A stretch of DNA of 64,000 nt from Escherichia phage FEC14. Positions 2,463-43,510 of the stretch are shown here, one piece after another. The position numbers and the translations under genes are program-made. The notes beneath the pieces were generated by a model. The model had not been told where the DNA came from. It worked only from the letters and a program-made list of their open reading frames with translations, and made no database searches. Within the stretch, counting starts at the first letter, position 1, and the number at the start of each line of letters is the position of its first letter. The stretch is from sequence record MG383452. One strand, given 5' to 3'.

Positions 2463-4792
2463 TCCTTCTTAATCACTTCGGTCATGCCATTACGCAGACC
2501 ATAACGAATGTTATGTTGGAAATATTCTTGGAACTCCTGTTCACGCTGACTGATGACAAACAGATTGTTCCCACCAAATTTATGTTTCAGCATCTCAACC
2601 GATTCTTGTACGCCACGCTCGCTCATGTTCTCAAGGATTTCATCTAACACAAACAGGTTACATTGCACCGACGCCTTGAGGTTGGCCACGTCCCGTAGGG
2701 CTAATGTCACAGCCAGATTGAGTCGGCTGCGTTGTCCTGTAGACAGGGAGAATATGCTTTGCCCTTTACGACCTGCAGCGCTCATGGTGATTTCAAATGT
2801 ATCATCAACAGCAATATCCAAGAACATATTGAGTGCTTCAAGATACTCGTTTATTTTACTATTGAGGAAAGGCAAATACAGGCTGATAATTCGAGCCTTG
2901 GTCTGATCATCTTTTAGGAAGAACAGAAGATGGTTCAGGTCTTGCAATTTCTCATCCAACTCTACGCGCCGCGCATTCAGATCTTCCATTAATGCCGTGA
3001 TGCGAGCGATCTCTCCTTCCAGGGCTTCAGTTGGTGTCGGCTTAACCGCCAATTTACGCTCTAAATCGGCAATGGATGCCTCTAGAGGGGCACGGCGTGA
3101 TTTCAGGCTGGTGAGTTTATCAGCCGTGTCGTTGATACTCTTAGAGAGCTGCTCACGCGCTTGACGGATTGACGTCGTGATATCTTCGTAACGGGTGTCT
3201 ACGGCCTTGAGGACGTCGTTAATTTTGGACTGTTGTTCCCGCTGTAAAGATGTTTTCTCAACAGCAGCGACATCATAGAATCCTTGGATGTCGCGTTTTA
3301 ATGTAGCGATCGCCGATTCCGCTTCTCGGATTTCATTGCGCAAAGCATCCAGTTCTTTGTCAATAACCGAAATCTGAGAAGATAATTCTGAATCTCTGAC
3401 ATTGTAATTCTCAATCAGGGAATTCACTTCTTCTAGGGCTGTATCAACCTGAAGAATCTTGTCAGTCAGTTCACTGATTTGTGGATAATATTGACTTTCA
3501 ATGCGTGATTTGGTATCGTCCGACACTAATTGCGTACACGTAGGGCAAGTGCCCATATCGTGGAAACGTTTGATGGCAGATTCATGTCCTTCCATTTCTG
3601 TTACGAATTTGATACGGAAGTTCTCACCCTGCTGACGCCGCGCTAATGCTTTGTTCAGTTCATCCAGGTTAGCATTCCGTTGGCTGACCAGATCATTTTT
3701 ACGTTCCGCGACTACCGCCATTCTCTCCCGAATTTCTTGTAATGAACGTTCGCCATCAGACACCTCGATACGTTCATAGTCTTCAGCCTTGGTATCAGCA
3801 TCATCCTGAACTGCTTGGATTTTGGCCGCATACTCTTCATTGATGGAATCGATATCCACCTTCATTTCAGCGTTCAGGCGATTACGGACTTCTGATAATT
3901 CAGTTTCTAATTTAGAATCTTGGGCACGGAATTCCGTCAGTTCGTCTTGAGAAGCACCAATATCTGAATTCAAACTATTCAGACGTTCCTTCTCTTGGAC
4001 AAGGATATCAGCAGATTGTTGCTGGATCATCGCATTGGAATTATTGATCTGTTCCAACTGCGCTTGCTGGCCTTTTAAATTTACATCATGAAAGGCGTAA
4101 TCATTGGTGACCGTCGTGAGTTCATTCGTTACTGTCTTGATAGATGCTTTTACATCTTCATTCATCAGACTGAAGAACCCCAAATCCCAGATTGTCTCTA
4201 CCATAGCGCGACGGTCGGCAGTGTACATTTCCGTGAATGGGATGAACTTCTCTTTGCCCAGAACCAGGGAGTTCTCAAACATCTTCTGGTCCACGCCAAT
4301 CAGGTTCACAATATATTTGTTCATGTCGGCTTTGGCCGCATCATTCACGACCTTCTTCCACTCACCGTCTACCATCTGATAGACTTCTACGAAATCAGGT
4401 TTGATACCACGACGGACTTTCCATTCACTTCCTCGAGTGGAGAACTCAACTTCACCCACGCATTCCTTTTTGTTTTGGGAATTGACTAATCCGGCTTTCT
4501 TTTCTTTCTTGCTGTATGTGTCATTATACAGAACGAAGAACAGCAGCCAGACAAGCATGGTGGATTTACCAGCGCCATTGTCATCGGATGTAACCAAGGT
4601 TGCCGAATTGCGTTGGTAATCAATTTCCATGAATTCATTACCGATAGAACGGAAGTTTTTAGCGCGACCGCGATGGAAAGTCAGTTTGTGGGTAATTTCC
4701 CCACGAATTTCAAATGGTACTTCAACAGAAACAGGAGTGTCCGCTTCTTTCAACAGCGAACCAAATTTTGATAATAGGTCTACATTGTTCAT
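2459..4792 (-). CDS. 46: recombination endonuclease ATPase subunit gp46 (Rad50/SbcC-like)
   Basis: Walker A GAGKST near N-terminus, long central coiled-coil, C-terminal LFVLDEILE...NLFVISQREQEF matching T4 gp46 C-terminus (LILDEVFD...VFIISHKD); immediately downstream of the gp47 gene as in T4. Confidence 0.9.
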   Translation of the reverse strand: MNNVDLLSKFGSLLKEADTPVSVEVPFEIRGEITHKLTFHRGRAKNFRSIGNEFMEIDYQRNSATLVTSDDNGAGKSTMLVWLLFFVLYNDTYSKKEKKAGLVNSQNKKECVGEVEFSTRGSEWKVRRGIKPDFVEVYQMVDGEWKKVVNDAAKADMNKYIVNLIGVDQKMFENSLVLGKEKFIPFTEMYTADRRAMVETIWDLGFFSLMNEDVKASIKTVTNELTTVTNDYAFHDVNLKGQQAQLEQINNSNAMIQQQSADILVQEKERLNSLNSDIGASQDELTEFRAQDSKLETELSEVRNRLNAEMKVDIDSINEEYAAKIQAVQDDADTKAEDYERIEVSDGERSLQEIRERMAVVAERKNDLVSQRNANLDELNKALARRQQGENFRIKFVTEMEGHESAIKRFHDMGTCPTCTQLVSDDTKSRIESQYYPQISELTDKILQVDTALEEVNSLIENYNVRDSELSSQISVIDKELDALRNEIREAESAIATLKRDIQGFYDVAAVEKTSLQREQQSKINDVLKAVDTRYEDITTSIRQAREQLSKSINDTADKLTSLKSRRAPLEASIADLERKLAVKPTPTEALEGEIARITALMEDLNARRVELDEKLQDLNHLLFFLKDDQTKARIISLYLPFLNSKINEYLEALNMFLDIAVDDTFEITMSAAGRKGQSIFSLSTGQRSRLNLAVTLALRDVANLKASVQCNLFVLDEILENMSERGVQESVEMLKHKFGGNNLFVISQREQEFQEYFQHNIRYGLRNGMTEVIKKD

Positions 4793-7269: not shown

Positions 7270-8037
7270 ATGTCAGAACGCGCATATCGTTTCAGTCTGA
7301 CCGCCCCAGAAATTGAGCGTTTGCTCTTGTCTATAAATGATTCCATACAAAAGCTGGACATCATTTATGACTACACGGCGGGTGGGACTGAAGGTCAAGT
7401 CGCAGCTGCGTCAGCTGTCAAAAACATGTGGCTAAAACTTAATGAGATGGTCACAGGTGAAGGTCTTAAAGACGCAATCAATGCAGCTAACGACAGCAAC
7501 GTATTCACCGATTATTATAAGTCTATTTTAGATCGCGAAACTTGGAAATTTATTGGTTCTCCGGCAGATTTATTAGCAAGGGACGATATAGACACTTCCA
7601 ATTTTGAAGGCGGTGAAGTAATCCTCCTACAAAAGAACGCTTCGGGCAACCCAGAATTCCAATACTGGAAAAGAACTCCTGTGGCAGGAGGTGATCCAAT
7701 ATTTGGTTGGGAATCTGTTTATGAAGGAAACTCCAACGACTCTTCTATTGATATTCCGGTTGTTGGGACCAGCATACTGAAGACAATCCCAAAAGCATTG
7801 TTTCATATGGTCGAATTCAGAGTACACGCTCGAGAGTCTACCCTCGGTCATTGGCAGGACACTGATGGCAAAATCGGTTATCGTGGTGAAGATCTGATTT
7901 ATAGCCTGTATAATCATGTTCAAACCAAACCGATCGCAAATATATCTTTCAGCCAAGATGTGGACAATATGATTATCACGATAACGACACTTGAACCAAA
8001 TATCAAGTGCCATTTATCGTTTATTGCGGGTTATTAA
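7270..8037 (+). CDS. hypothetical protein (255 aa), one of the few plus-strand genes
   Basis: Long plus-strand ORF in the gap between two minus-strand genes, GAGGAA RBS before ATG; stop overlaps the DinG stop convergently. Confidence 0.5.
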   Translation: MSERAYRFSLTAPEIERLLLSINDSIQKLDIIYDYTAGGTEGQVAAASAVKNMWLKLNEMVTGEGLKDAINAANDSNVFTDYYKSILDRETWKFIGSPADLLARDDIDTSNFEGGEVILLQKNASGNPEFQYWKRTPVAGGDPIFGWESVYEGNSNDSSIDIPVVGTSILKTIPKALFHMVEFRVHARESTLGHWQDTDGKIGYRGEDLIYSLYNHVQTKPIANISFSQDVDNMIITITTLEPNIKCHLSFIAGY

Positions 8038-10252: not shown

Positions 10253-11047
10253 TTATTTGCCGACGTTTAGCATTTTACTTGAGCCTGAACCATCAACAAT
10301 CAGAGTACATTTCCCGCTGTTGGCGCAAGATTGCAACACCATGTTATATTCGTGTTGTAAATATTCAGGTGTCAGAGATGTCGTCAGTTTCTGATTCGCC
10401 CTGGCTTCTTGGTCTCGAATTTCAACGTTCTTTCTTGCTGTATCCAAACGTTTGTCGGCCATGACATTATCACGGATAGATTGCTCAATCGAAGGATCTG
10501 TCAGCGCCTTTTTGACCAACACGCGTGTGATTGTGAACATGCCAGGTGCAGCTGTTTCTAATTGCTGCTGGGTGCGTTCCTTGATCATCTTTTCTAACTC
10601 AGCCCGTTGGGTGTGAATTGTCATAGAATCCAAAGAGGAAACGGCGTCCATCGTTGAGGATGCTGCGGCGGTTTTAACCAGGTTGAATCCCACCGCTATC
10701 GTGCCGTCACCGAGTTCAGCGCTCTGACCTGCAAATTTGGTATGGAACCAAGGAACCTTCGCGACGTTCGGTGTGTAATAAACGTCCACATCCAGATCTT
10801 CCAAGGTCAGGTTGTCTTTGGCCTTTGGCGTCATTTTCGTCAGACTCACAACGGCTTCTTTGGTCGTGTAAACATCCACGCTTGAAACAAAGCTGGTGTA
10901 GATCCCCGCTGTTACAGGGTTCATGTCTACTTCACCCCATTGGGTGCGAACGCCGACATTACCTTCATCGATAACGCCACCACAACCAGAAAGTAGACTT
11001 GCAGCCAGAACCATAATTGCACCAAACACCAATTTCTTGAACATCAA
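10253..11047 (-). CDS. lipoprotein (264 aa), possible SPFH/band-7-like
   Basis: Signal peptide with lipobox LLSGC read in translation; downstream fold assignment is a guess. Confidence 0.55.
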   Translation of the reverse strand: MMFKKLVFGAIMVLAASLLSGCGGVIDEGNVGVRTQWGEVDMNPVTAGIYTSFVSSVDVYTTKEAVVSLTKMTPKAKDNLTLEDLDVDVYYTPNVAKVPWFHTKFAGQSAELGDGTIAVGFNLVKTAAASSTMDAVSSLDSMTIHTQRAELEKMIKERTQQQLETAAPGMFTITRVLVKKALTDPSIEQSIRDNVMADKRLDTARKNVEIRDQEARANQKLTTSLTPEYLQHEYNMVLQSCANSGKCTLIVDGSGSSKMLNVGK

Positions 11048-11262
11048 TGTACCCCTTCAAAAATGTAGATATATGCACCCAATGTGAGTGCAGTTATTGT
11101 AACCGAAGAAATCAGCAGTAGGAAAGTTACTCTCACCCGTTTGCGCCAACGTTTACTTCGGTAGATTTTAGTCTCTTTCAAGTATTTGAAAAAGAAAAAT
11201 AAAATGAATGTTGAAATTACGAATATGAACAGATAACGGATTAACCCGATCATATTTCCCAC
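11044..11262 (-). CDS. small membrane protein (72 aa, two predicted TM segments)
   Basis: Two hydrophobic stretches separated by a basic loop (KRWRKRVR); overlaps lipoprotein start. Confidence 0.4.
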   Translation of the reverse strand: MGNMIGLIRYLFIFVISTFILFFFFKYLKETKIYRSKRWRKRVRVTFLLLISSVTITALTLGAYIYIFEGVH

Positions 11263-13437: not shown

Positions 13438-13758
13438 TTATCTTTGATTTCCAACGAAATTAGTCGCTATTTCCCGACACATAGTCAGATCTTTGATCGT
13501 CTGTTTGCTATTGTCGGCAGCGGACTCCATCATTGGCAAATCCAAAGCATTCTCTATTTGATCCACGCTGTAGAGATCAAGGCGTTTCAACTCACCTTCA
13601 TAATCTGATAAAAGGATGGATGTATCTTTATCATCAGGGTGAAATTGTTGATAAGTAGACAACCAGGCCGCACACATATTCAATTTGCTAGCCGGAGTTG
13701 CCACAACTTGGAATGATGCCAACATAGAAAAGAATAACAAGAATATTATGTTTCTCAT
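13438..13758 (-). CDS. small secreted protein (106 aa, signal peptide)
   Basis: N-terminal MRNIIFLLFFSMLASFQVVA signal-like sequence. Confidence 0.5.
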   Translation of the reverse strand: MRNIIFLLFFSMLASFQVVATPASKLNMCAAWLSTYQQFHPDDKDTSILLSDYEGELKRLDLYSVDQIENALDLPMMESAADNSKQTIKDLTMCREIATNFVGNQR

Positions 13759-14444
13759 CTTTCGTTCTCCTTCATCATATTATCACAGTCAATTCTTGTT
13801 TGCTTGAGTTCACGGGCAAGCCTGGGATCATCAAGATTGACAGACAAATTAGTGGAAAGATCTTTCAAACCATTCTGAACACGGTCTTCATAATAATGAT
13901 CATTTTCCACCAGCCATGCTCTCAGGCCAAGGGCGCGAGTCCGCCATTCCTTTTTCAAACGTCGATCTGATTCTTGATCAGCACTGTATTCAAATACTCG
14001 GATACATTGGTTGCCATCATTGATGAGATCCAGCTGACGTCGGCCAACCTGCACACCTTTTTGTAATGCTGGAGAAGGAAGAGAACGGCACTGTCTTACG
14101 GTCATTCGTCCTTGTGTGCCCATACGACCAGTCATGATGAGATCGCCAGCCTCCATGCCTCCTCGATTAAATTCTTTGTCGTTCATATATCCTTTCAGGT
14201 TGAACGCGCCTTGCTTATATCGATTAAACTCAATACCAGCATTTACAACGGCATCTGTGACATTACCTGTGGCCCAGAGTTCAGCAAAGTTCTCTATGGA
14301 ACCAGTTTTGTCTATAGCGACGGCTTGGGAGAACCCAGCACAGTAGGAAAGATCAGACCACAGTTTTTCACCTGTGGAGTTCAGCTTGGCGGTGGCAGGA
14401 AGTGCCAGACCAGCCAGCACAACCCCGATGATTAAACGTTTCAT
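13755..14444 (-). CDS. secreted protein (about 229 aa from internal Met MKRLIIGVVLAGLALPATA)
   Basis: Signal peptide begins at internal Met preceded by GGAGA RBS; track ORF 13755..14609 has a 55-aa extension that overlaps the upstream gene. Confidence 0.5.
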   Translation of the reverse strand: MKRLIIGVVLAGLALPATAKLNSTGEKLWSDLSYCAGFSQAVAIDKTGSIENFAELWATGNVTDAVVNAGIEFNRYKQGAFNLKGYMNDKEFNRGGMEAGDLIMTGRMGTQGRMTVRQCRSLPSPALQKGVQVGRRQLDLINDGNQCIRVFEYSADQESDRRLKKEWRTRALGLRAWLVENDHYYEDRVQNGLKDLSTNLSVNLDDPRLARELKQTRIDCDNMMKENER

Positions 14445-28607: not shown

Positions 28608-28973
28608 ATGAAGCAATTTGTTGGTTTATACGCAGTAGGGGAAGACCAAGAAGCAATTCTTTCCATATCAGAACAACGTTCGTCATTAAAAGGCGTTTAT
28701 TTACAAAGCCTTTTCTGTACATCGGGGTTTATTGTGTCACCGATGTTGGTGATACCATTACTCCCAAATAACAAAGGTCTGTATGTTGGCATTATTCAAC
28801 AAGGCCAGGCGCGGGAAGTGAAAGTTGTTCCACTGCTGGCATCTAATGAAGAATTGTTTTCTCAGATTCTTGAGCCGAAAGTGCTACAACAATGTATTGG
28901 CACGATCGACTGTTTATTTGGTTCCAACAAAGAAGGCGAGGCAACCCCCGCCTATGTGAATCAAGATATTTGA
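28608..28973 (+). CDS. hypothetical protein (121 aa), plus strand
   Basis: Plus-strand ORF filling the gap before uvsW; weak RBS. Confidence 0.35.
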   Translation: MKQFVGLYAVGEDQEAILSISEQRSSLKGVYLQSLFCTSGFIVSPMLVIPLLPNNKGLYVGIIQQGQAREVKVVPLLASNEELFSQILEPKVLQQCIGTIDCLFGSNKEGEATPAYVNQDI

Positions 28974-28978
28974 AATGG

Positions 28979-30481
28979 TTAGAGCGCCACTTTTTTCATT
29001 TTAACAGGGTGGCGCTCCATAAGATAAAATTTATATCTCTCATGAGAATGCCTGAGAGCATGGTTGTAGGAACCGTTGTAACGCAGGTTGTCTACCAGGT
29101 CCCAGATTCGCGCAACATCCTTAGAGGAATGCTGACGCATCAAACGCCCCAATGTCTGTATAACACGGATATAAGATTTGCTGGGATGGGCCAATATCAG
29201 ATGATGGAGTTTTTTGATAGATACGCCCTGTTGCATAGTACCATATGATGCTAACAGTGTTATATCTTCCCCTTCTTCCATAGCAGCCTGAATCTGTTTA
29301 CGAACTTCTGTCTTGACTTCCCCGTTGATGACGAATACGTTTTTCTTGACTGCCGATAGCATTTCATAAACCAACATCATGTGTGCATCGATACGTTCGA
29401 ACATGACTGCGACGTTCCCTTTCAAAGATAGAGCCATTCGGGCTATCAATTCATTGCGGCGTTCGTTAGCAATGAGGAATTCTATTTCCTTTTGATACTC
29501 AGCACCGTGCATTTCAATACAGTCTGCCATAGGATGTATGACTTCAATCATATTAACATTGATGTCTGCCGCATATCCTAGATCGATTAAATCGCGCGCT
29601 GTAATAATTTTATGATATGCGCCAAAGTGAGCAACGACTTGTAACCCTGCGACCTTTGTATTCGCCAGGGTTCCGGTTACTCCCAAACGTTGATCAGCGT
29701 TAATACAGTTGTTCAAGATGTAAGACAATTTATCTGATTTTGATGTATGTACTTCGTCAACGACGATATCTCCAAATTGATGGAACCACTCTTTGGGTTG
29801 GTTCTGGATACCTTGCCAAGTTGAAATAACTATGGGTTTGAAAATCTCTTTCGTTGCCCCTTCGTATATTGTCTGGACGTTCATCAATGGCTTCCATTCT
29901 GTCCCGTGGCTATATTCTTCGAAGTTGTCATACAACTGAGTCACCAAATGAATGGATGGTACAACAATTAACGTCCTCAGATTACTTTCGAGGGCATCTC
30001 TGCGTTGCCTGTAGTAACGCGCCATGATGTACAAAATAAAGGATTTGCCAGCACTCGTGGCAGCTTCGAGGACACATCTGCTTTGGCGTATTGCTGTGGC
30101 AACAGAATCAAATTGATAATCGCGGACAATCGCTTTTTGATATTGTTTGTTTTCGTCTCGGTACACCGCATTCAATGTATCGATGAACGCATGAATTTCT
30201 TCATCCGGAATGTCTTGAATATATTTTAAGGCCGGATCTAATTTGATGGTGTAACCGTTCATCTTACAGAATTTGAACACCTCAAATAACAGGCCGATGT
30301 CGATAAGCCCAGAACTCTTTGTGAACAACCGCACTACGCCGTCCCATTTACTGAACGGATTCGGTTGGAAATTAGGATCTTCAAATTTGAAGTAATCGTT
30401 GAGTTCTTCACGGATATAATCCTCGGCAAGGATCCGCATTCTAACTTCGTTCACTTTGACTATTTGGATCTCAGACATCAC
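28979..30481 (-). CDS. uvsW: UvsW SF2 DNA/RNA helicase
   Basis: ATSAGKS (Walker A), DEVH box, length 500 aa and overall colinearity with T4 UvsW (PTSAGRS, DECH). Confidence 0.85.
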   Translation of the reverse strand: MMSEIQIVKVNEVRMRILAEDYIREELNDYFKFEDPNFQPNPFSKWDGVVRLFTKSSGLIDIGLLFEVFKFCKMNGYTIKLDPALKYIQDIPDEEIHAFIDTLNAVYRDENKQYQKAIVRDYQFDSVATAIRQSRCVLEAATSAGKSFILYIMARYYRQRRDALESNLRTLIVVPSIHLVTQLYDNFEEYSHGTEWKPLMNVQTIYEGATKEIFKPIVISTWQGIQNQPKEWFHQFGDIVVDEVHTSKSDKLSYILNNCINADQRLGVTGTLANTKVAGLQVVAHFGAYHKIITARDLIDLGYAADINVNMIEVIHPMADCIEMHGAEYQKEIEFLIANERRNELIARMALSLKGNVAVMFERIDAHMMLVYEMLSAVKKNVFVINGEVKTEVRKQIQAAMEEGEDITLLASYGTMQQGVSIKKLHHLILAHPSKSYIRVIQTLGRLMRQHSSKDVARIWDLVDNLRYNGSYNHALRHSHERYKFYLMERHPVKMKKVAL

Positions 30482-30507: not shown

Positions 30508-31281
30508 TTAGCGATCCGCCCAGATTCCTTTCTGTTCTTTACCCATTTTGTGATACAGACGGACACGATCAAACATTTTAGAAATAACGTCTTTGCGATC
30601 GAATTCGATTATGGTGGGAACAAGGGCATTTTCGTTGGATATAATATTGATTAAACGCTCTATCTTGACATTAAACATTTGTTGAAACATGACTGAGTAT
30701 AGACACAATTGAATACTATAATCTTCTATCATGCTTCGAGTTTTTAGGGTGTTGGATGTTTTGAAATCGATTATGCTTGGAATTCCTTCGTAAACCCCGA
30801 TGAGGTCAACACGACCAGCAAGACCCAGGACTTCGCTATATAATGGAATCTCTTGTGCATATATCTTGCTCATTTTGTTAAGGTAGGGGAAAACCTGTTT
30901 GAACATAAACACGTATTCCCCTGCAGCTTCCAGAACTTCCTTCATTGGTCTGTTTTTGAGATACAACTCACAAGCCAAATGAAGTTTTTCCCCACGGTCT
31001 GCGCAACGATGTGTTTCTATATCAGCAGCTTCATGTCCCAACTTGTCCCGCCAGGCTTCTAACCATGTGTGGTCACCAGTACGCCCTAACATGGTCGTCA
31101 CTGAAGTTAGTTTGACTCCAGTGGGGGAAACATAGTGACGACCATTTTCGGTAGTTACGCAAGTCAGTTCCTTAAACGGCAAGGAATATTGCTGAAATGT
31201 GTGATGACGATTTTCAAAGTCATTAAGTTTGCGCAAAGCCTGTAGAGAAACCATTACATCCCATCCAAATATTTTCGCCAA
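30508..31281 (-). CDS. putative PD-(D/E)xK nuclease
   Basis: GRVDLIGVYEGIPSIIDFKTS fits D...(D/E)xK catalytic motif; located between uvsW and uvsY. Confidence 0.45.
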   Translation of the reverse strand: MAKIFGWDVMVSLQALRKLNDFENRHHTFQQYSLPFKELTCVTTENGRHYVSPTGVKLTSVTTMLGRTGDHTWLEAWRDKLGHEAADIETHRCADRGEKLHLACELYLKNRPMKEVLEAAGEYVFMFKQVFPYLNKMSKIYAQEIPLYSEVLGLAGRVDLIGVYEGIPSIIDFKTSNTLKTRSMIEDYSIQLCLYSVMFQQMFNVKIERLINIISNENALVPTIIEFDRKDVISKMFDRVRLYHKMGKEQKGIWADR

Positions 31282-31709
31282 TCAATAGCATTCTTCACTT
31301 CATATCCGAGTTTGTTCAAACGATCTAAGCAACTTTCGATGAACTTGACTTTGGCTTTCTGCTCTTGAAGCATGCTAGACAATTCGATATAATCATCATC
31401 TGCTTTTACCCATACGTCTATATCAGATTTCAGGGGGCGAACTTTTAATGGACGTTCAACATAAACGTTGGGTGGCAATTCCCCTGCATAAAATCGGCGT
31501 AAATAGAGATCTATTTGGCGGAATTTGCCAGTTAGATACTCCAGATATCTTCCTTCACGAATATAATGGCGTTGCACAGTCATCCACGAACGACCAATTT
31601 TCAATGACATTTGGTCTAAGTTCATGTCTTCAGGATTTACCGAAATAAGAGGCTCCAATTCTGCCATTATATCTTCGGTTTTCATCGTTTCAAGTTTTGT
31701 TTCGCTCAT
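31254..31709 (-). CDS. uvsY: recombination mediator UvsY
   Basis: Size and C-terminal half (YLRRFYAGE...) resemble T4 UvsY (RLDYYSGRGDG...); neighbourhood with uvsW. Confidence 0.55.
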   Translation of the reverse strand: MSETKLETMKTEDIMAELEPLISVNPEDMNLDQMSLKIGRSWMTVQRHYIREGRYLEYLTGKFRQIDLYLRRFYAGELPPNVYVERPLKVRPLKSDIDVWVKADDDYIELSSMLQEQKAKVKFIESCLDRLNKLGYEVKNAIDWRKYLDGM

Positions 31710-31762
31710 GATTTATTCCCTGCTGTTTCAACTCTCTGTATTATAACTCTCTGTATTATAAC

Positions 31763-32260
31763 TTATTGTTTATCAATTTCGCGGGTGACGCGAGTCGGAG
31801 TCAGTTTCAAATATTTGAACGTGACAGTCGTGACCAGTTGGGGAACCGCAGCATCCACATCCACCAATACGTTGTCCAAAGCTGTGGGACGGGCTTCTTC
31901 CAACAACAATTGTAGACCAACAGGGCGATTCATGTTATTAAGAAGGTCGATGGTGATGTCACGGCTAACAGCTAAATCAGATCCAGCATTGGACGCAATC
32001 CAATTGTAAATCTGTTCCCAGTTGTACCAACTCTCATCGATAACGAACGTAAATACGATGGGGTCATACGTGAGACGTTCTGAAGGTATGGAGTTGAGCA
32101 CATCGCCAGGGGATGGACCCTCGATACCTTCAGAATACACTCCAGGAATACTGAAGTCATGTATTGAACGAGTAAGCAATATCAGGTCTCCGATAGTTAA
32201 GCGCCATTTATCGGAAGCCGCGAAATTAGGATTTTCGTTTTTGAATTGTACACCTGTCAT
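31763..32260 (-). CDS. hypothetical protein (165 aa)
   Basis: Minus-strand ORF. Confidence 0.45.
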   Translation of the reverse strand: MTGVQFKNENPNFAASDKWRLTIGDLILLTRSIHDFSIPGVYSEGIEGPSPGDVLNSIPSERLTYDPIVFTFVIDESWYNWEQIYNWIASNAGSDLAVSRDITIDLLNNMNRPVGLQLLLEEARPTALDNVLVDVDAAVPQLVTTVTFKYLKLTPTRVTREIDKQ

Positions 32261-32290
32261 GTTAGCACCTTTGCTGTGGAGAACGTTTTA

Positions 32291-32944
32291 GTGTTCCTGA
32301 CACGCGGATTCAGAAAATGGATCATGACGATGATAATGGTGCTTGCACTCACAAGTTGCCGTATCTTTGTCACGTCCGTCATTTCTGTAACCGACCTCTG
32401 GGATCCTGAAATCAGAACCATACCTGTTAACATCTCAGCCGACATTGATAAATGCAATAAAAATATTCTGAATCAAGTAGTATCTGATTTTCAGAACTTT
32501 CAGACTCTTCAAGCTGTTGGTTGTTTTGATGATAACAACCAGTCACTGAGACCATACTGGAAAACCACGATTCCCCTATTGAGGAAAGGTGACGAAGGAA
32601 AGATCCCATATCTATCCGCAAGTATTTATTACTCTCAGAATAATAGCATCATAGCGACTTTCAACCCTTCTTTCTTTGACAAACTCAGAAGGAATACTCA
32701 AGCAAGGGACGTAGAAATCACCAGAGACGTTGCAATATCATTTCAGATAGTTAATAACACCAAATCTCCGATCCGAATTGCCACTCAGGGTGTTTTCGTT
32801 AATGGATCTGCTGTAGGTAATGAAATGAACATCTATGAAATAAGACCAGGCGGTAAAGTATGGATTCGAATGAGTGATGTTGGGGTGAACTCCCTGGTGA
32901 TGGAAGGTATCGAACCAGTGGGAGTTCTCCCCGCTAGACATTGA
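32291..32944 (+). CDS. plus-strand lipoprotein (start likely GTG giving MFLTRGFRKWIMTMIMVLALTSC signal with lipobox)
   Basis: Lipobox LTSC after a hydrophobic segment; GGAGA RBS before an in-frame GTG; track ORF 32246..32944. Confidence 0.45.
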   Translation: MFLTRGFRKWIMTMIMVLALTSCRIFVTSVISVTDLWDPEIRTIPVNISADIDKCNKNILNQVVSDFQNFQTLQAVGCFDDNNQSLRPYWKTTIPLLRKGDEGKIPYLSASIYYSQNNSIIATFNPSFFDKLRRNTQARDVEITRDVAISFQIVNNTKSPIRIATQGVFVNGSAVGNEMNIYEIRPGGKVWIRMSDVGVNSLVMEGIEPVGVLPARH

Positions 32945-33673
32945 TTATTTCAGGGACTCTTTTAATTCTGGAGTCCCTATTTTATCAATAACGCCTCCAG
33001 CACAGAGATCTTTGGCCCATTCTTCAAGAACATTCGCAAAAGAGAAGTTTAGACATTCTTTGATCATACTTTCAATATGAGCAAGTTCTGCAGCTATCCC
33101 ATCGGTGATATCGTTTATAACTCCATTGACGGCGGTTATTGCCTCATTGATATGTCCTGTTACTTCAGCAGCCAATTGCTGTAGTTTTGCCATCTCTTCT
33201 GAGGCACCTTCCATAATCATGTCATACAATTCCGATATCTTGTTTGTTACGGTCTGTAGAGCACCTTCCATAGCATTCAGCCATTGGCGTCCTAAATCCT
33301 GAACAACACCAAAAGCCTTGTTGATCAAATCACAATTGTTTGGCTCTCGTGATATACCCTTCAGACCTGATTTGTATGACACGGAAGTACCGATGCGAGA
33401 ATACGCGTCATTGATACTTTGGTCGCCATATGTGTTCAGTGTCGTTATCCCCGTGTTGGCGGTGCTATACATGGTGGTGGCTGCTGTGAGTTTTTCTGGT
33501 GTTAGTCCACCAGCCGCCATAGCCGCCTGCATCTCCGGAGTCGCGTTGGCAGTTATCAATGGTATATTGGTACTACCACTGGTGATTAAATCCTGTGAGG
33601 GTCCGGAGAGGGACGGAAGCGGGTTGCTAAATGCATTACCAGAGGAAAGGACATCGTAGATTTGTGCGTTCAT
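32945..33673 (-). CDS. hypothetical protein (242 aa), Gly/Ser/Thr-rich N-terminus and helical C-terminus
   Basis: Minus-strand ORF. Confidence 0.5.
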   Translation of the reverse strand: MNAQIYDVLSSGNAFSNPLPSLSGPSQDLITSGSTNIPLITANATPEMQAAMAAGGLTPEKLTAATTMYSTANTGITTLNTYGDQSINDAYSRIGTSVSYKSGLKGISREPNNCDLINKAFGVVQDLGRQWLNAMEGALQTVTNKISELYDMIMEGASEEMAKLQQLAAEVTGHINEAITAVNGVINDITDGIAAELAHIESMIKECLNFSFANVLEEWAKDLCAGGVIDKIGTPELKESLK

Positions 33674-33704
33674 AAAATACCCCCAATTTTGGGGGTATTT
33701 ATAA

Positions 33705-33875
33705 TCACGGAAGATGATAGATAAAATTCTCGCAGAACTTTTTGGTGTATTTCTTTAGAAATATAAATTTAGGTTCGCGTGGTGTATCTTTCAGATCATT
33801 TAGTGTGATATAACTGATTCGCGCCAGAAAGTACATGGTAAAAGCGACACAAAGAATCAAAATTAATTGCAGCAT
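33705..33875 (-). CDS. possible small hydrophobic membrane protein (about 56 aa)
   Basis: Internal Met of track ORF 33705..33965 preceded by GGAG; single TM-like segment LQLILILCVAFTMYFLA. Confidence 0.25.
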   Translation of the reverse strand: MLQLILILCVAFTMYFLARISYITLNDLKDTPREPKFIFLKKYTKKFCENFIYHLP

Positions 33876-33909
33876 AGCTAACTCCATATGGGTGTGAAGG
33901 CAAACATAT

Positions 33910-34332
33910 TTATAACAATCGTTTGGTTTTGGGTTTGCCCATGAGAGTGATATTGACATTGACACCTGCTTTTTTCATGCGGGTAATCATGTCTTGCGTC
34001 CCAGTAGACGAACCATCCCATAATGCAATTCCAAAGACCTCAAGACCTTTTTGTTTGGCCAGGGTTGTAGCTTTGTCTAACATATCTTTGTTACGTTGGT
34101 TTCCTGCGCCTTTCCCATATATCGTGTGATAATTCTTAGGGATCTCCATTGGTGTAACATGAACATAATTGATTTCACACCAATCACGAGATATCAAGTC
34201 CACACCAACCGCTTCACCTTCTATAAAAGTTTCGATCTCGTGGGGATCTAACAGTTCATCCAGTTTGGCGAAGATTTTATCCCGCTCGGTTATTGAGCGG
34301 GAACCTGTAATGAGCACGACATATTTCTTCAT
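33910..34332 (-). CDS. SLOG-family Rossmann-like protein (DUF2493-like, recalled from memory)
   Basis: From internal Met MKKYVVLITGSR...; motifs ITGSR, GEAVGVD, YGKGAGNQRNKDMLD. Confidence 0.45.
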   Translation of the reverse strand: MKKYVVLITGSRSITERDKIFAKLDELLDPHEIETFIEGEAVGVDLISRDWCEINYVHVTPMEIPKNYHTIYGKGAGNQRNKDMLDKATTLAKQKGLEVFGIALWDGSSTGTQDMITRMKKAGVNVNITLMGKPKTKRLL

Positions 34333-34337
34333 AGAAC

Positions 34338-34655
34338 TCACAGCGCCCCAAGATTGCTGATGACGTACAGGCTGCACAAGGGAGTCCCTGATGAACGAGG
34401 TTCTATGCTCATTCCCGAGAGGCGGATCAGTTCCAGCAAACCGTCGGTGGTCTGATACGCACGAGTCGAACCGTTTGGACGATATAGCTCCAACTCGGTT
34501 CGCCCTTCCTTTAATGCGTTACGGATGCGAGTGAACACACTGTGGGCTTGATATTTTTGACGTAGAATATCTAAACGGGTGATGAGATTTCGACTGCGGC
34601 TGCGACGTCCCGTTGACGAAACAACTAATTTCATTTCTGGTGTTTTACAAGCCAT
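34338..34655 (-). CDS. hypothetical protein (105 aa)
   Basis: Minus-strand ORF. Confidence 0.35.
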   Translation of the reverse strand: MACKTPEMKLVVSSTGRRSRSRNLITRLDILRQKYQAHSVFTRIRNALKEGRTELELYRPNGSTRAYQTTDGLLELIRLSGMSIEPRSSGTPLCSLYVISNLGAL

Positions 34656-43452: not shown

Positions 43453-43482
43453 TCAATAACTCAAATCAATAAGACAAAGGAA

Positions 43483-43502
43483 AACCCCGCCGAAGCGGGG
43501 TT
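43483..43502 (-). terminator. intrinsic terminator AACCCCGCCGAAGCGGGGTT 3' of gp18
   Basis: Same 20-mer hairpin as after gp23; followed by T-rich tract on the minus strand. Confidence 0.6.
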
Positions 43503-43510
43503 GGTCATTT

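What the first reader, a model, noticed from the sequence alone, without database searches (positions are those of the whole stretch)
32291..32944. Plus-strand lipoprotein gene inside a minus-strand block
One of only four credible plus-strand genes; it sits between a hypothetical gene and a Gly-rich protein gene and appears to start at a GTG preceded by GGAGA, giving a good lipoprotein signal (lipobox LTSC). Its orientation and export signal suggest a moron-like accessory gene.
Basis: partly seen in the sequence, partly recalled or inferred. Interest (0 to 1): 0.4.

Follow-up and report, generated by a model that had tools for sequence, protein, structure and literature searches.

The report
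Conserved phage outer-membrane lipoprotein gene
This is a real gene for an exported, lipid-anchored protein of unknown function (family DUF7424). Almost every phage of the Ackermannviridae family carries it, so it is a fixed family gene and not a recently acquired accessory one.

Summary
The window is a Kuttervirus-like Ackermannviridae phage. The ORF at 32291-32944 (+) starts at a GTG eight bases after GGAGA and encodes a 217-aa prolipoprotein with lipobox LTSC (Cys23, +2 Arg). It matches Pfam DUF7424 (E 1e-60).

It is under strong purifying selection. Homologs occur in 347 phage records, against about 353 records with a family-level capsid match. In every genus examined it sits opposite-strand right after the gp3-like tail-completion gene, including Vibrio phages at 22-25% identity. 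The start codon, the lipobox cysteine and a second cysteine pair are conserved. A terminator-like hairpin follows the stop codon.

Two published virion proteomes detect both neighbours but not this protein. A pLDDT-94 model has no match among solved structures.

The "moron" reading is not supported for this phage family. However, distant DUF7424 homologs in Pasteurellaceae prophages are classical promoter-gene-terminator morons inside tail operons.

My best inference (about 0.4) is an outer-membrane-anchored periplasmic protein that modifies the infected cell envelope to block entry of further phage, a role like T5 Llp or T4 Spackle but without homology to them. [quoted passage not shown]

The gene is already annotated as a putative lipoprotein. 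Interest is modest.

The parts
32278..32282 (+). Shine-Dalgarno GGAGA, 8 nt before the GTG start
   Evidence: Read directly. GGAGA plus GTG is conserved in six Ackermannviridae lineages.
32291..32944 (+). CDS of the DUF7424 prolipoprotein (217 aa, GTG start, TGA stop)
   Evidence: Pfam PF24199 at E 1.1e-60, 205 bits against a cut-off of 27. phrog_3832 at E 4e-113. pN/pS shows purifying selection. 99% identical to proteins annotated 'putative lipoprotein'.
32291..32356 (+). Signal peptide (residues 1-22): basic N-region R5, R8, K9 followed by a hydrophobic core
   Evidence: The same architecture is seen in all homologs.
32348..32359 (+). Lipobox L20-T21-S22-C23. Cys23 is the predicted lipidated first residue of the mature protein, and the +2 residue is Arg.
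   Evidence: Cys23 is invariant in alignments A1 and A2. 174 of 205 family members pass the strict PS51257-type rule, and most failures are truncated gene calls.
32453..32524 (+). Stretch bounded by Cys55 (32453-32455) and Cys78 (32522-32524), the only other cysteines. They are a probable disulfide pair of an exported protein.
   Evidence: Invariant in Ackermannviridae homologs and at least 90% conserved in distant homologs.
32952..32985 (+). Terminator-like hairpin (9-bp stem 32952-32960 / 32970-32978, 9-nt loop) followed by ATTTTAT. It lies inside the last codons of the convergent DUF7217 gene.
   Evidence: Energy -18.3 kcal/mol, z -4.4, 0 of 200 shuffles fold as well. Comparable hairpins follow the orthologs in Erwinia, Serratia and Vibrio phages. 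A terminator is annotated at this place in Klebsiella phage May, although no stable hairpin folds there.
31763..32260 (-). Divergent neighbour: T4 gp3-like tail completion / sheath stabiliser gene, only 30 nt from the lipoprotein start
   Evidence: Annotation of relatives. phrog_45 tail. Detected in virions of LIMEstone1 and Sajous1.
32945..33673 (-). Convergent neighbour: DUF7217 virion protein, whose stop codon abuts the lipoprotein stop. An exact TATAAATA lies at 33696-33703 upstream of it.
   Evidence: PF23854 at E 2e-101. Confirmed structural protein in LIMEstone1 (ORF129) and Sajous1 (gp166). Motif.

Best explanation
The ORF is a genuine, family-wide conserved gene of Ackermannviridae phages. 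It encodes a prolipoprotein of the DUF7424 family.

Shown or strongly supported:
- Translation starts at GTG 32291.
- The N-terminus is a Sec/SPase II signal with lipobox LTSC.
- The mature protein of about 195 aa (about 22 kDa) starts at a lipidated Cys23. It has a conserved cysteine pair typical of an oxidised, exported protein.
- It folds into one compact alpha/beta domain that begins immediately after the lipid anchor.
- It was not detected in purified virions.

Inferred:
- Because the +2 residue is Arg/Lys and not Asp, the Lol pathway should deliver it to the inner leaflet of the outer membrane. The globular domain would then sit tight against the membrane, facing the periplasm.
- Mechanism I think most likely: it is made in the infected cell from its own transcription unit. 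There it alters the envelope so that further phages of similar type cannot complete entry. It could do this by occupying a conserved outer-membrane or periplasmic component needed for tail penetration, or by binding the incoming tail tip. A related benefit would be protecting progeny from wasting themselves on debris. This is functionally analogous to T5 Llp, phi80/N15 Cor or T4 Spackle, but with an unrelated and apparently new fold.

Confidence that it is a real, conserved lipoprotein gene is about 0.95. Confidence in the exclusion or entry-blocking mechanism specifically is about 0.4.
For: Gene reality and start:
- DUF7424 hit.
- pN 0.18 against pS 0.74 versus Klebsiella phage May, with the GTG and GGAGA conserved.
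- 347 phage records hold a homolog, against about 353 with a family-level capsid match.
- Synteny and orientation are conserved out to Vibrio phages and an uncultured viral contig.

Lipoprotein status:
- Invariant lipobox Cys and conserved C55/C78.
- 174 of 205 family members pass the PS51257-type rule, and the +2 residue is K or R in 136 of 174.

Not a virion part:
- LIMEstone1 mass spectrometry found ORF127 and ORF129 but not ORF128, the ortholog, which is annotated 'signal peptide present'.
- Sajous1 mass spectrometry found gp166 and gp168 but not gp167.

Independent unit: opposite strand, with terminator-like hairpins after the stop in four lineages.

Exclusion-type role:
- DUF7424 homologs in Pasteurella multocida and Haemophilus haemolyticus prophages lie inside tail/baseplate operons. 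Each has its own sigma-70-like promoter and a strong intrinsic terminator. This is the classic position and architecture of lysogen-expressed exclusion lipoproteins, by established knowledge of cor and llp.
- Other homologs lie in integrase/resolvase islands beside other exported proteins and a KAP NTPase.
- Those prophage contexts argue against a role tied to virion assembly or to Ackermannviridae-specific lysis.
Against: - There are no functional data at all: no paper mentions DUF7424 or phrog_3832.
- No promoter could be recognised upstream, so the timing of expression is unknown.
- Known receptor-blocking lipoproteins are small (60-80 aa), sit next to the receptor-binding gene and co-vary with it. 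This protein is three times larger and lies far from the tailspike cluster. It is conserved across phages whose tailspikes target entirely different hosts, so any target must be a conserved host or phage component.
- There is no sequence or fold similarity to any known exclusion protein or defence family.
- Outer-membrane sorting is inferred from the E. coli +2 rule only. 16 family members have Asp at +2.
Confidence: 0.4

Rival explanations
1. Host-envelope takeover of another kind. The lipoprotein would bind and inhibit or redirect a conserved periplasmic or outer-membrane host machine, such as envelope stress sensing, peptidoglycan-outer-membrane tethering, vesiculation, polysaccharide export or an envelope-based defence. 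The benefit would be to the current infection, not the blocking of later ones.
For: The protein is conserved across phages of Salmonella, Klebsiella, Dickeya, Erwinia, Serratia, Vibrio and Aeromonas, which fits a conserved host target. Family members are fused to, or sit next to, secreted ankyrin-repeat proteins and other lipoproteins, which suggests periplasmic protein-protein interaction modules. The protein is absent from virions.
Against: No similarity to any characterised inhibitor. The prophage moron context is more typical of lysogen protection. No target can be named.
Confidence: 0.25
2. Lysis factor. DUF7424 would be the outer-membrane component that lets these phages breach the outer membrane. 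It would act as an atypical o-spanin-like partner of a distant inner-membrane protein, or as a new type of outer-membrane disruptor.
For: The spanin survey of Kongari et al. 2018 (PMC6139136) lists Vi01, SFP10, Maynard, SJ2, SJ3, CBA120, ECML-4, PhaxI, phiSboM-AG3 and Dickeya RC-2014 as 'spanin-less'. It notes orphan lipoprotein genes in 31 such genomes. The gene annotated 'Rz-like spanin' in relatives (window 13438-13758) has LNMC in place of a canonical lipobox. DUF7424 is a canonical, family-wide outer-membrane lipoprotein.
Against: There is no adjacent or overlapping type II membrane protein gene, and the gene is not near the endolysin or putative spanin genes. The mature domain is a 194-aa compact fold, not a short proline-rich tether. 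There is no C-terminal transmembrane segment, so it is not a u-spanin. Homologs occur as morons in the tail operons of temperate prophages and in non-phage islands, where a lysis role makes little sense.
Confidence: 0.12
3. Recently acquired moron or accessory cargo gene of this particular phage.
For: Opposite orientation inside a minus-strand block, an export signal and its own terminator-like hairpin. The family does occur as true morons in Pasteurellaceae prophages.
Against: The gene is present in about 98% of Ackermannviridae-like records, at the same locus and in the same orientation. Its divergence parallels neighbouring core genes. Its G+C is like the rest of the window. No recognisable sigma-70 promoter was found.
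Confidence: 0.03
4. Virion or assembly component, for example a tail or baseplate accessory protein, as its position between two structural genes might suggest.
For: It is flanked by the gp3-like and DUF7217 virion protein genes. Homologs lie in prophage tail modules.
Against: The conserved Sec/lipoprotein signal removes it from the cytoplasm, where tailed phages assemble. It is not detected in two virion proteomes that detect both neighbours. It lies on the opposite strand to the structural genes.
Confidence: 0.03
5. Non-coding shadow ORF of the opposite strand.
For: None beyond its position in a minus-strand block.
Against: The minus strand has only ORFs of 67 aa or fewer here. pN is far below pS. 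The Pfam family hit is strong. Protein-level conservation extends to 22% identity with motifs retained. The fold prediction is confident at pLDDT 94.
Confidence: 0.01

Closest known systems
Pfam DUF7424 (PF24199) / PHROG 3832, annotated 'putative (conserved) lipoprotein' in Salmonella phages Marshall, Maynard, bering, moki and others
   Same: Full-length match well above threshold. 96-99% identical to these proteins. Same locus and orientation.
   Different: Nothing differs. This is a member. The family has no assigned function, and many records mis-call the start (bering 204 aa, Serratia 3M 102 aa) or omit the gene altogether (Erwinia phiEa2809).
Receptor-blocking superinfection-exclusion lipoproteins: T5 Llp (FhuA) and Cor of phi80/N15/HK022
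   Same: Phage-encoded outer-membrane lipoprotein that is not a virion part. Like llp, it is transcribed divergently from neighbouring structural genes (background knowledge; PMC9586334 was listed by the search but not read). Family members are morons in prophage tail regions, like cor.
   Different: No sequence or fold similarity. About three times larger. Not adjacent to the receptor-binding (tailspike) genes. Conserved across phages with different host receptors. Exclusion activity is untested.
T4 Spackle (Sp), a periplasmic inhibitor of the gp5 tail lysozyme
   Same: It would be an exported protein of a large T4-related myovirus acting in the periplasm of the infected cell against incoming tails (background knowledge; PMC7677548 was listed by the search but not read). 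This is one concrete way a conserved phage-side target would explain conservation across hosts.
   Different: Spackle is a small soluble helical protein with an SPase I signal and is not a lipoprotein. No homology was detected.
Spanins: o-spanin Rz1 and u-spanin T1 gp11
   Same: N-terminal outer-membrane lipoprotein signal in a phage of Gram-negative hosts. Ackermannviridae were classed as spanin-less.
   Different: No linked i-spanin gene, no C-terminal transmembrane segment, a large folded domain and no location in a lysis cluster.
Morons of temperate phages (promoter-gene-terminator units such as lambda bor and lom)
   Same: Distant DUF7424 genes in Pasteurella and Haemophilus prophages have exactly this architecture. 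The window gene has its own terminator-like hairpin.
   Different: In Ackermannviridae the gene is fixed, syntenic and compositionally ordinary, and these phages are strictly lytic.

Membership tests
Pfam DUF7424 (PF24199) | Score above the curated gathering threshold over the full domain | tested here: met
   205.2 bits against a cut-off of 27, residues 26-216 on profile positions 2-195 of 196
Bacterial prolipoprotein (SPase II substrate, PROSITE PS51257-type) | Basic residue in the first 7 positions, uncharged hydrophobic stretch, [LIVMFWSTAG]2-[LIVMFYSTAGCQ]-[AGS]-C with Cys at position 15-35 | tested here: met
   R5, T13-L18 uncharged, A19-L20-T21-S22-C23. The Cys is invariant across homologs.
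Bacterial prolipoprotein (SPase II substrate, PROSITE PS51257-type) | Actual diacylglyceryl modification, globomycin-sensitive cleavage and outer-membrane localisation | not testable with these tools
   Needs palmitate labelling and membrane fractionation. Outer-membrane sorting is inferred from Arg at +2.
Moron (autonomous accessory unit in a phage genome) | Own terminator directly downstream | tested here: met
   Hairpin at 32952-32978 plus a T-tract, z -4.4. Also present in Erwinia, Serratia and Vibrio phages.
Moron (autonomous accessory unit in a phage genome) | Own recognisable promoter directly upstream | tested here: inconclusive
   No conserved sigma-70-like or TATAAATA motif in 200 nt upstream in eight lineages. 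The promoter types of these phages are poorly defined.
Moron (autonomous accessory unit in a phage genome) | Present in some close relatives and absent from others, often with atypical composition | tested here: not met
   347 records against about 353 family-level capsid matches. Same locus everywhere examined. G+C is ordinary.
Two-component spanin, o-spanin subunit | Outer-membrane lipoprotein signal | tested here: met
Two-component spanin, o-spanin subunit | Gene embedded in, overlapping or adjacent to a type II inner-membrane i-spanin gene, usually near holin and endolysin genes | tested here: not met
   The neighbours are the gp3-like and DUF7217 genes on the other strand. The annotated endolysin and 'spanin' genes lie about 18-21 kb away.
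Two-component spanin, o-spanin subunit | Short, largely unstructured periplasmic domain | tested here: not met
   A 194-aa compact alpha/beta domain at pLDDT 94
Unimolecular spanin (T1 gp11 type) | N-terminal lipobox plus a C-terminal transmembrane segment | tested here: not met
   The C-terminus ...MEGIEPVGVLPARH is not hydrophobic. The model ends in a helix and a strand of the globular domain.
Llp/Cor-type receptor-blocking lipoproteins | Sequence or fold relationship to Llp, Cor or other known exclusion proteins | tested here: not met
   Only DUF7424 is hit in Pfam at E <= 0.01. No PADLOC, NCBIfam, PDB sequence or Foldseek PDB match.
Llp/Cor-type receptor-blocking lipoproteins | Expression renders cells resistant to the cognate phage by inactivating its receptor | not testable with these tools
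   Needs plating-efficiency and adsorption assays
Virion structural protein | Detected in purified particles | tested here: not met
   From published data read here: absent from the LIMEstone1 and Sajous1 virion mass-spectrometry lists, although both flanking proteins are present

The most novel reading that the evidence does not exclude
DUF7424 is a new class of phage envelope effector with a fold not yet seen in solved structures. In the most novel version it is the missing outer-membrane-disruption component of the 'spanin-less' Ackermannviridae. A less radical version is a new kind of exclusion factor that blocks penetration by contractile tails at the inner face of the outer membrane.
Probability: 0.12. 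Interest if true: 0.65.

Novelty: already known. Interest (0 to 1): 0.3.

Why it matters
Ackermannviridae (Vi1-like phages) are widely used for biocontrol and therapy against Salmonella, E. coli O157, Klebsiella and Dickeya. What they do to the host envelope, and how they lyse cells without recognisable spanins, is largely uncharacterised.

This gene is one of very few exported proteins conserved across the whole family. It has a confidently predicted fold with no solved relative. The same family moves as a moron in prophages of Pasteurellaceae pathogens.

If it turns out to be an exclusion or envelope-remodelling factor, it would affect the design of phage cocktails, because of cross-exclusion between co-applied Kutterviruses. 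It would also define a new family of phage lipoproteins.

As it stands, it is a correctly spotted but already annotated conserved hypothetical lipoprotein.

Tried and rejected
- Shadow-ORF or artefact reading: rejected by pN/pS and conservation.
- The Sajous1 'gp214-217 ferrojan-horse operon' paper looked as if it might report this protein in virions. The GenBank record shows that gp214-217 are a different, co-directional locus. The true ortholog is gp167, which is not in the mass-spectrometry list.
- Promoter search upstream found nothing convincing or conserved. I tried a sigma-70 scan, the T4-late TATAAATA motif (exact and with one mismatch), and inspection of eight orthologous upstream regions. 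TATAAATA with one mismatch is not enriched in the window at all (58 found against 61 expected).
- Profile searches against PDB sequences, NCBIfam and PADLOC found nothing.
- The search for related loci with the divergent alignment failed for lack of a conserved stretch. P0085 gave no viral contig.
- Literature searches for DUF7424, PF24199, phrog_3832 and for Kuttervirus or Ackermannviridae transcriptomes found nothing relevant. The KP1/KP12 Klebsiella phage paper is not about Ackermannviridae.
Full report
WHAT IS THERE. The window carries a plus-strand ORF ending at 32944. The longest version starts at a TTG (32246) that would overlap the divergent neighbour. The in-frame GTG at 32291 lies 8 nt after GGAGA (32278-32282) and gives a 217-aa product, MFLTRGFRKWIMTMIMVLALTSC|RIFV.... 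The opposite strand has only ORFs of 67 aa or fewer across this stretch.

WHAT THE WINDOW IS. Bases 31000-34500 are 98.5-98.9% identical to many Salmonella and E. coli phages of the genus Kuttervirus, family Ackermannviridae: SenALZ1, bering, Se-J, SFP10 and others. In phage bering the same gene is annotated 'putative lipoprotein'. It lies between the T4 gp3-like 'tail completion and sheath stabilizer protein' and a 'putative structural protein'. The 'Gly-rich protein' is a DUF7217 virion protein with 8.3% Gly and 11.2% Ala.

IS IT A REAL GENE, AND WHERE DOES IT START?
- The protein matches Pfam DUF7424 over its full length (E 1.1e-60) and phrog_3832 (E 4e-113).
- tblastn finds it in 347 phage records from Salmonella, Vibrio, Klebsiella, Escherichia, Dickeya, Serratia, Shigella, Erwinia, Enterobacter and Aeromonas phages.
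- The major capsid protein of this phage finds 353 records at 60% identity or more, which roughly delimits the family. The gene is therefore near-universal in Ackermannviridae and absent from the T4-like phages beyond.
- Against Klebsiella phage May, pN is 0.18 and pS is 0.74. Against the near-identical bering, dN/dS is 0.07.
- The GTG start and the GGAGA box are conserved in Taipeivirus, Limestonevirus, an Aglimvirinae coliphage and in Erwinia and Serratia phages.
- Several GenBank records use a later ATG (bering, 204 aa), annotate only the C-terminal part (Serratia 3M) or miss the gene entirely (Erwinia phiEa2809).
- In every lineage examined the order is helicase, exonuclease, UvsY, gp3-like gene, then this gene on the opposite strand. 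This includes Vibrio phages at 22-25% identity and an uncultured 145-kb viral contig.
- Its divergence (70, 63, 37, 35 and 24-26% identity to the Klebsiella, Dickeya, Erwinia, Serratia and Vibrio phage orthologs) is somewhat faster than gp3, UvsY and the exonuclease, and similar to DUF7217.

IS IT A LIPOPROTEIN?
- From the GTG start, the N-terminus meets the PROSITE PS51257-type rule: R5, R8 and K9, an uncharged hydrophobic stretch, A-L-T-S-C, and Cys at position 23. From the bering start it fails.
- Cys23 is invariant in alignments spanning the family.
- A profile search of 1.84 billion representative proteins finds 236 clusters at E <= 0.001. Almost all are 190-240 aa and align from the signal peptide onwards. 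Those inspected all carry a lipobox.
- 174 of 205 family sequences pass the strict rule. Most failures are N-terminally truncated gene calls.
- The +2 residue is Lys or Arg in 136 of 174 and Asp in 16. By the E. coli Lol-avoidance rule (established knowledge) this predicts outer-membrane sorting for the window protein. This step is inference.
- The only other cysteines, C55 and C78, are invariant in Ackermannviridae and at least 90% conserved in distant members, as expected for a disulfide in an exported protein.

TRANSCRIPTION UNIT.
- Only 30 nt separate the start from the divergent gp3-like start. The stop codon abuts the stop of the convergent DUF7217 gene.
- Eight bases after the stop there is a 9-bp hairpin (32952-32978) followed by ATTTTAT. 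Its energy is -18.3 kcal/mol with z -4.4.
- Equally strong hairpins with T-tracts follow the orthologs in Erwinia, Serratia and two Vibrio phages (z -3.6 to -6.0). None follows those in Klebsiella May, Dickeya phiD3 or coliphage ZQ1. May's authors annotated a terminator there nonetheless.
- I could not find a promoter. No sigma-70-like site is conserved in the 200 nt upstream in eight lineages.
- The T4 late motif TATAAATA occurs only twice in 64 kb. One copy lies just upstream of DUF7217 at 33696-33703. With one mismatch allowed the motif is not enriched at all. Expression timing is therefore unknown.
- I found no Ackermannviridae transcriptome in the library.

STRUCTURE.
- AlphaFold2 with 18 sequences gave pLDDT 80.8. 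With 52 diverse family members and the mature sequence it gave pLDDT 94.1 and pTM 0.88.
- The model is a single compact alpha/beta domain whose first strand begins at the residue after the lipidated cysteine. There is no flexible tether, so the domain would sit against the membrane.
- Foldseek against 350,542 PDB chains found nothing with either model. The best E-values were 0.09 and 0.12.
- BFVD returned only DUF7424 proteins.
- A profile search of PDB sequences, NCBIfam and PADLOC found nothing.

NOT A VIRION PROTEIN.
- The LIMEstone1 virion proteome lists ORF127 (gp3) and ORF129 (the 25-kDa unknown structural protein, DUF7217) but not ORF128 (PMC3296691). The GenBank record shows that ORF128 is the ortholog, on the opposite strand, noted 'putative signal peptide present'.
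- The Sajous1 virion proteome lists gp166 and gp168 (8 spectra each) but not gp167, the ortholog (PMC10892097).
- The 'gp214-217' operon discussed in that paper is a different locus.

THE WIDER FAMILY.
- Distant DUF7424 proteins (confirmed by Pfam) occur in bacterial genomes.
- In Pasteurella multocida and Haemophilus haemolyticus they lie in myovirus prophages, inside the tail/baseplate operon. They sit near the tape measure, Dit-like, Pam3_gp18 and E217_gp41 genes, but at different insertion points.
- Each is preceded by a sigma-70-like promoter in the short upstream gap and followed immediately by a strong intrinsic terminator. This is the textbook moron architecture.
- A third prophage has the gene between the tape measure and Dit genes, together with a repressor, ORF6N genes and a small DUF6694 lipoprotein.
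- Others lie in integrase/resolvase islands between a secreted ankyrin-repeat protein and another lipoprotein, or next to a KAP NTPase.
- One member is fused to ankyrin repeats.
- The family is therefore a mobile, exported module that temperate elements carry as cargo and that Ackermannviridae have fixed.

THE LYSIS QUESTION.
- Kongari et al. 2018 (PMC6139136) list Vi01, SFP10, Maynard, SJ2, SJ3, CBA120, ECML-4, PhaxI, phiSboM-AG3 and Dickeya RC-2014 among 'spanin-less' phages. They note that 31 such genomes have a lipoprotein gene with no linked i-spanin candidate.
- In the window, the pair annotated 'i-spanin / Rz-like spanin' in bering (about 13755-14444 and 13438-13758, minus strand) encodes proteins with N-terminal signal-like segments. 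The second has LNMC where a canonical lipobox would be.
- DUF7424 cannot therefore be excluded as an outer-membrane lysis component. However, it lacks every spanin hallmark except the lipobox. It has no linked type II membrane gene, no C-terminal transmembrane segment, a large folded domain and no lysis-cluster location. Its occurrence as a moron in temperate prophages and in non-phage islands also argues against a lysis role.

HOW IT MOST LIKELY WORKS. Shown: this is a conserved, selected gene with a conserved lipoprotein signal and cysteine pair, a compact exported domain, absence from virion proteomes, an autonomous terminator, and moron relatives. Inferred: it is an outer-membrane-anchored periplasmic protein made in the infected cell.

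I judge the most likely role (about 0.4) to be blocking the entry of further phage, or protecting progeny from being lost on cell debris. It would do so by engaging a conserved envelope component or the incoming tail tip. The closest functional analogues are T5 Llp, Cor and T4 Spackle, from background knowledge and papers PMC9586334 and PMC7677548, which were listed but not read. The main support is the prophage moron context in tail operons. The main weaknesses are the complete lack of functional data, the unknown timing, and the differences in size and location from known exclusion lipoproteins.

The rivals are another kind of envelope takeover (0.25), a lysis factor (0.12), a recently acquired moron (0.03), a virion part (0.03) and a non-coding ORF (0.01 or less).

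VERDICT. The 'moron-like accessory gene' interpretation is only partly right. The gene is already in databases as a putative lipoprotein of family DUF7424, so it is not new as an object. Its function is unknown and no paper in the searched library names the family. Interest is 0.3. The upside lies in the apparently new fold and in the open question of how these phages handle the outer membrane.

Noticed in passing
window 13438-13758 (-) and 13755-14444 (-): The pair annotated 'Rz-like spanin' and 'i-spanin' in phage bering encodes proteins with N-terminal signal-like segments. The supposed o-spanin has LNMC where a canonical lipobox would be. Kongari et al. 2018 class most Vi01-like phages as spanin-less, so how this family disrupts the outer membrane looks unresolved.
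   Followed up: partly
window 10253-11047 (-): A single 264-aa ORF encodes an SPFH/band-7 protein with a canonical lipobox (LLSGC). In bering the equivalent is split into a 57-aa 'lipoprotein' and an 'SPFH domain' CDS. It is followed by a 72-aa two-transmembrane protein (11044-11262). This is a second conserved lipoprotein in the phage. [quoted passage not shown]
   Followed up: partly
window 33696-33703 (-) and 33907-33914 (-): These are the only two exact T4-type late promoter motifs (TATAAATA) in 64 kb. The first lies 23 nt upstream of the DUF7217 start. Transcripts from it that read on to the gp3-like gene would run antisense across the whole lipoprotein gene. One-mismatch versions are not enriched, so late promoters of this phage probably differ from those of T4.
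   Followed up: partly
GenBank OR844942.1 (hit H31): A record named 'Enterococcus phage Efm 3-10' (111 kb) encodes a protein 99.5% identical to this Kuttervirus lipoprotein. It is probably a mislabelled or contaminated record of a Salmonella/E. coli Ackermannviridae phage.
   Followed up: no
L002 (Erwinia phiEa2809) 2980-3651; L003 (Serratia 3M) 2989-3654; L001 (bering) 7277-7930; L007 (Klebsiella May) 1495-2154: The ortholog is unannotated in phiEa2809, annotated only as a 102-aa C-terminal fragment in Serratia 3M, and given a late ATG start that removes the signal peptide's basic region in bering and May. This is systematic mis-annotation caused by the GTG start and the tight divergent junction.
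   Followed up: yes
L004 3580-4905 and L005 3627-4931 (Vibrio phages K476, D509): In the Vibrio relatives the DUF7217-to-capsid block of small genes is replaced by a 440-aa homing endonuclease gene between the lipoprotein gene and the major capsid gene.
   Followed up: no
P0018, P0020, P0021: Near-complete Ackermannviridae genomes (157-161 kb contigs) are deposited inside Salmonella enterica genome assemblies. This suggests carrier-state infection or contamination of the sequenced cultures.
   Followed up: no
L013/L014 7294-9241; L022/L023 (metagenome contigs): In integrase/resolvase islands the DUF7424 gene is sandwiched between a secreted ankyrin-repeat protein and a second, unrelated lipoprotein. 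One family member (P0117) is a DUF7424-ankyrin fusion. This may be a recurrent periplasmic cassette.
   Followed up: partly
window 43453-43510 versus bering 28825-29613: The opposite-strand GIY-YIG homing endonuclease gene that sits between the tail sheath gene and the next GIY-YIG gene in bering is absent from this window. Only about 58 nt separate the two flanking ORFs.
   Followed up: no
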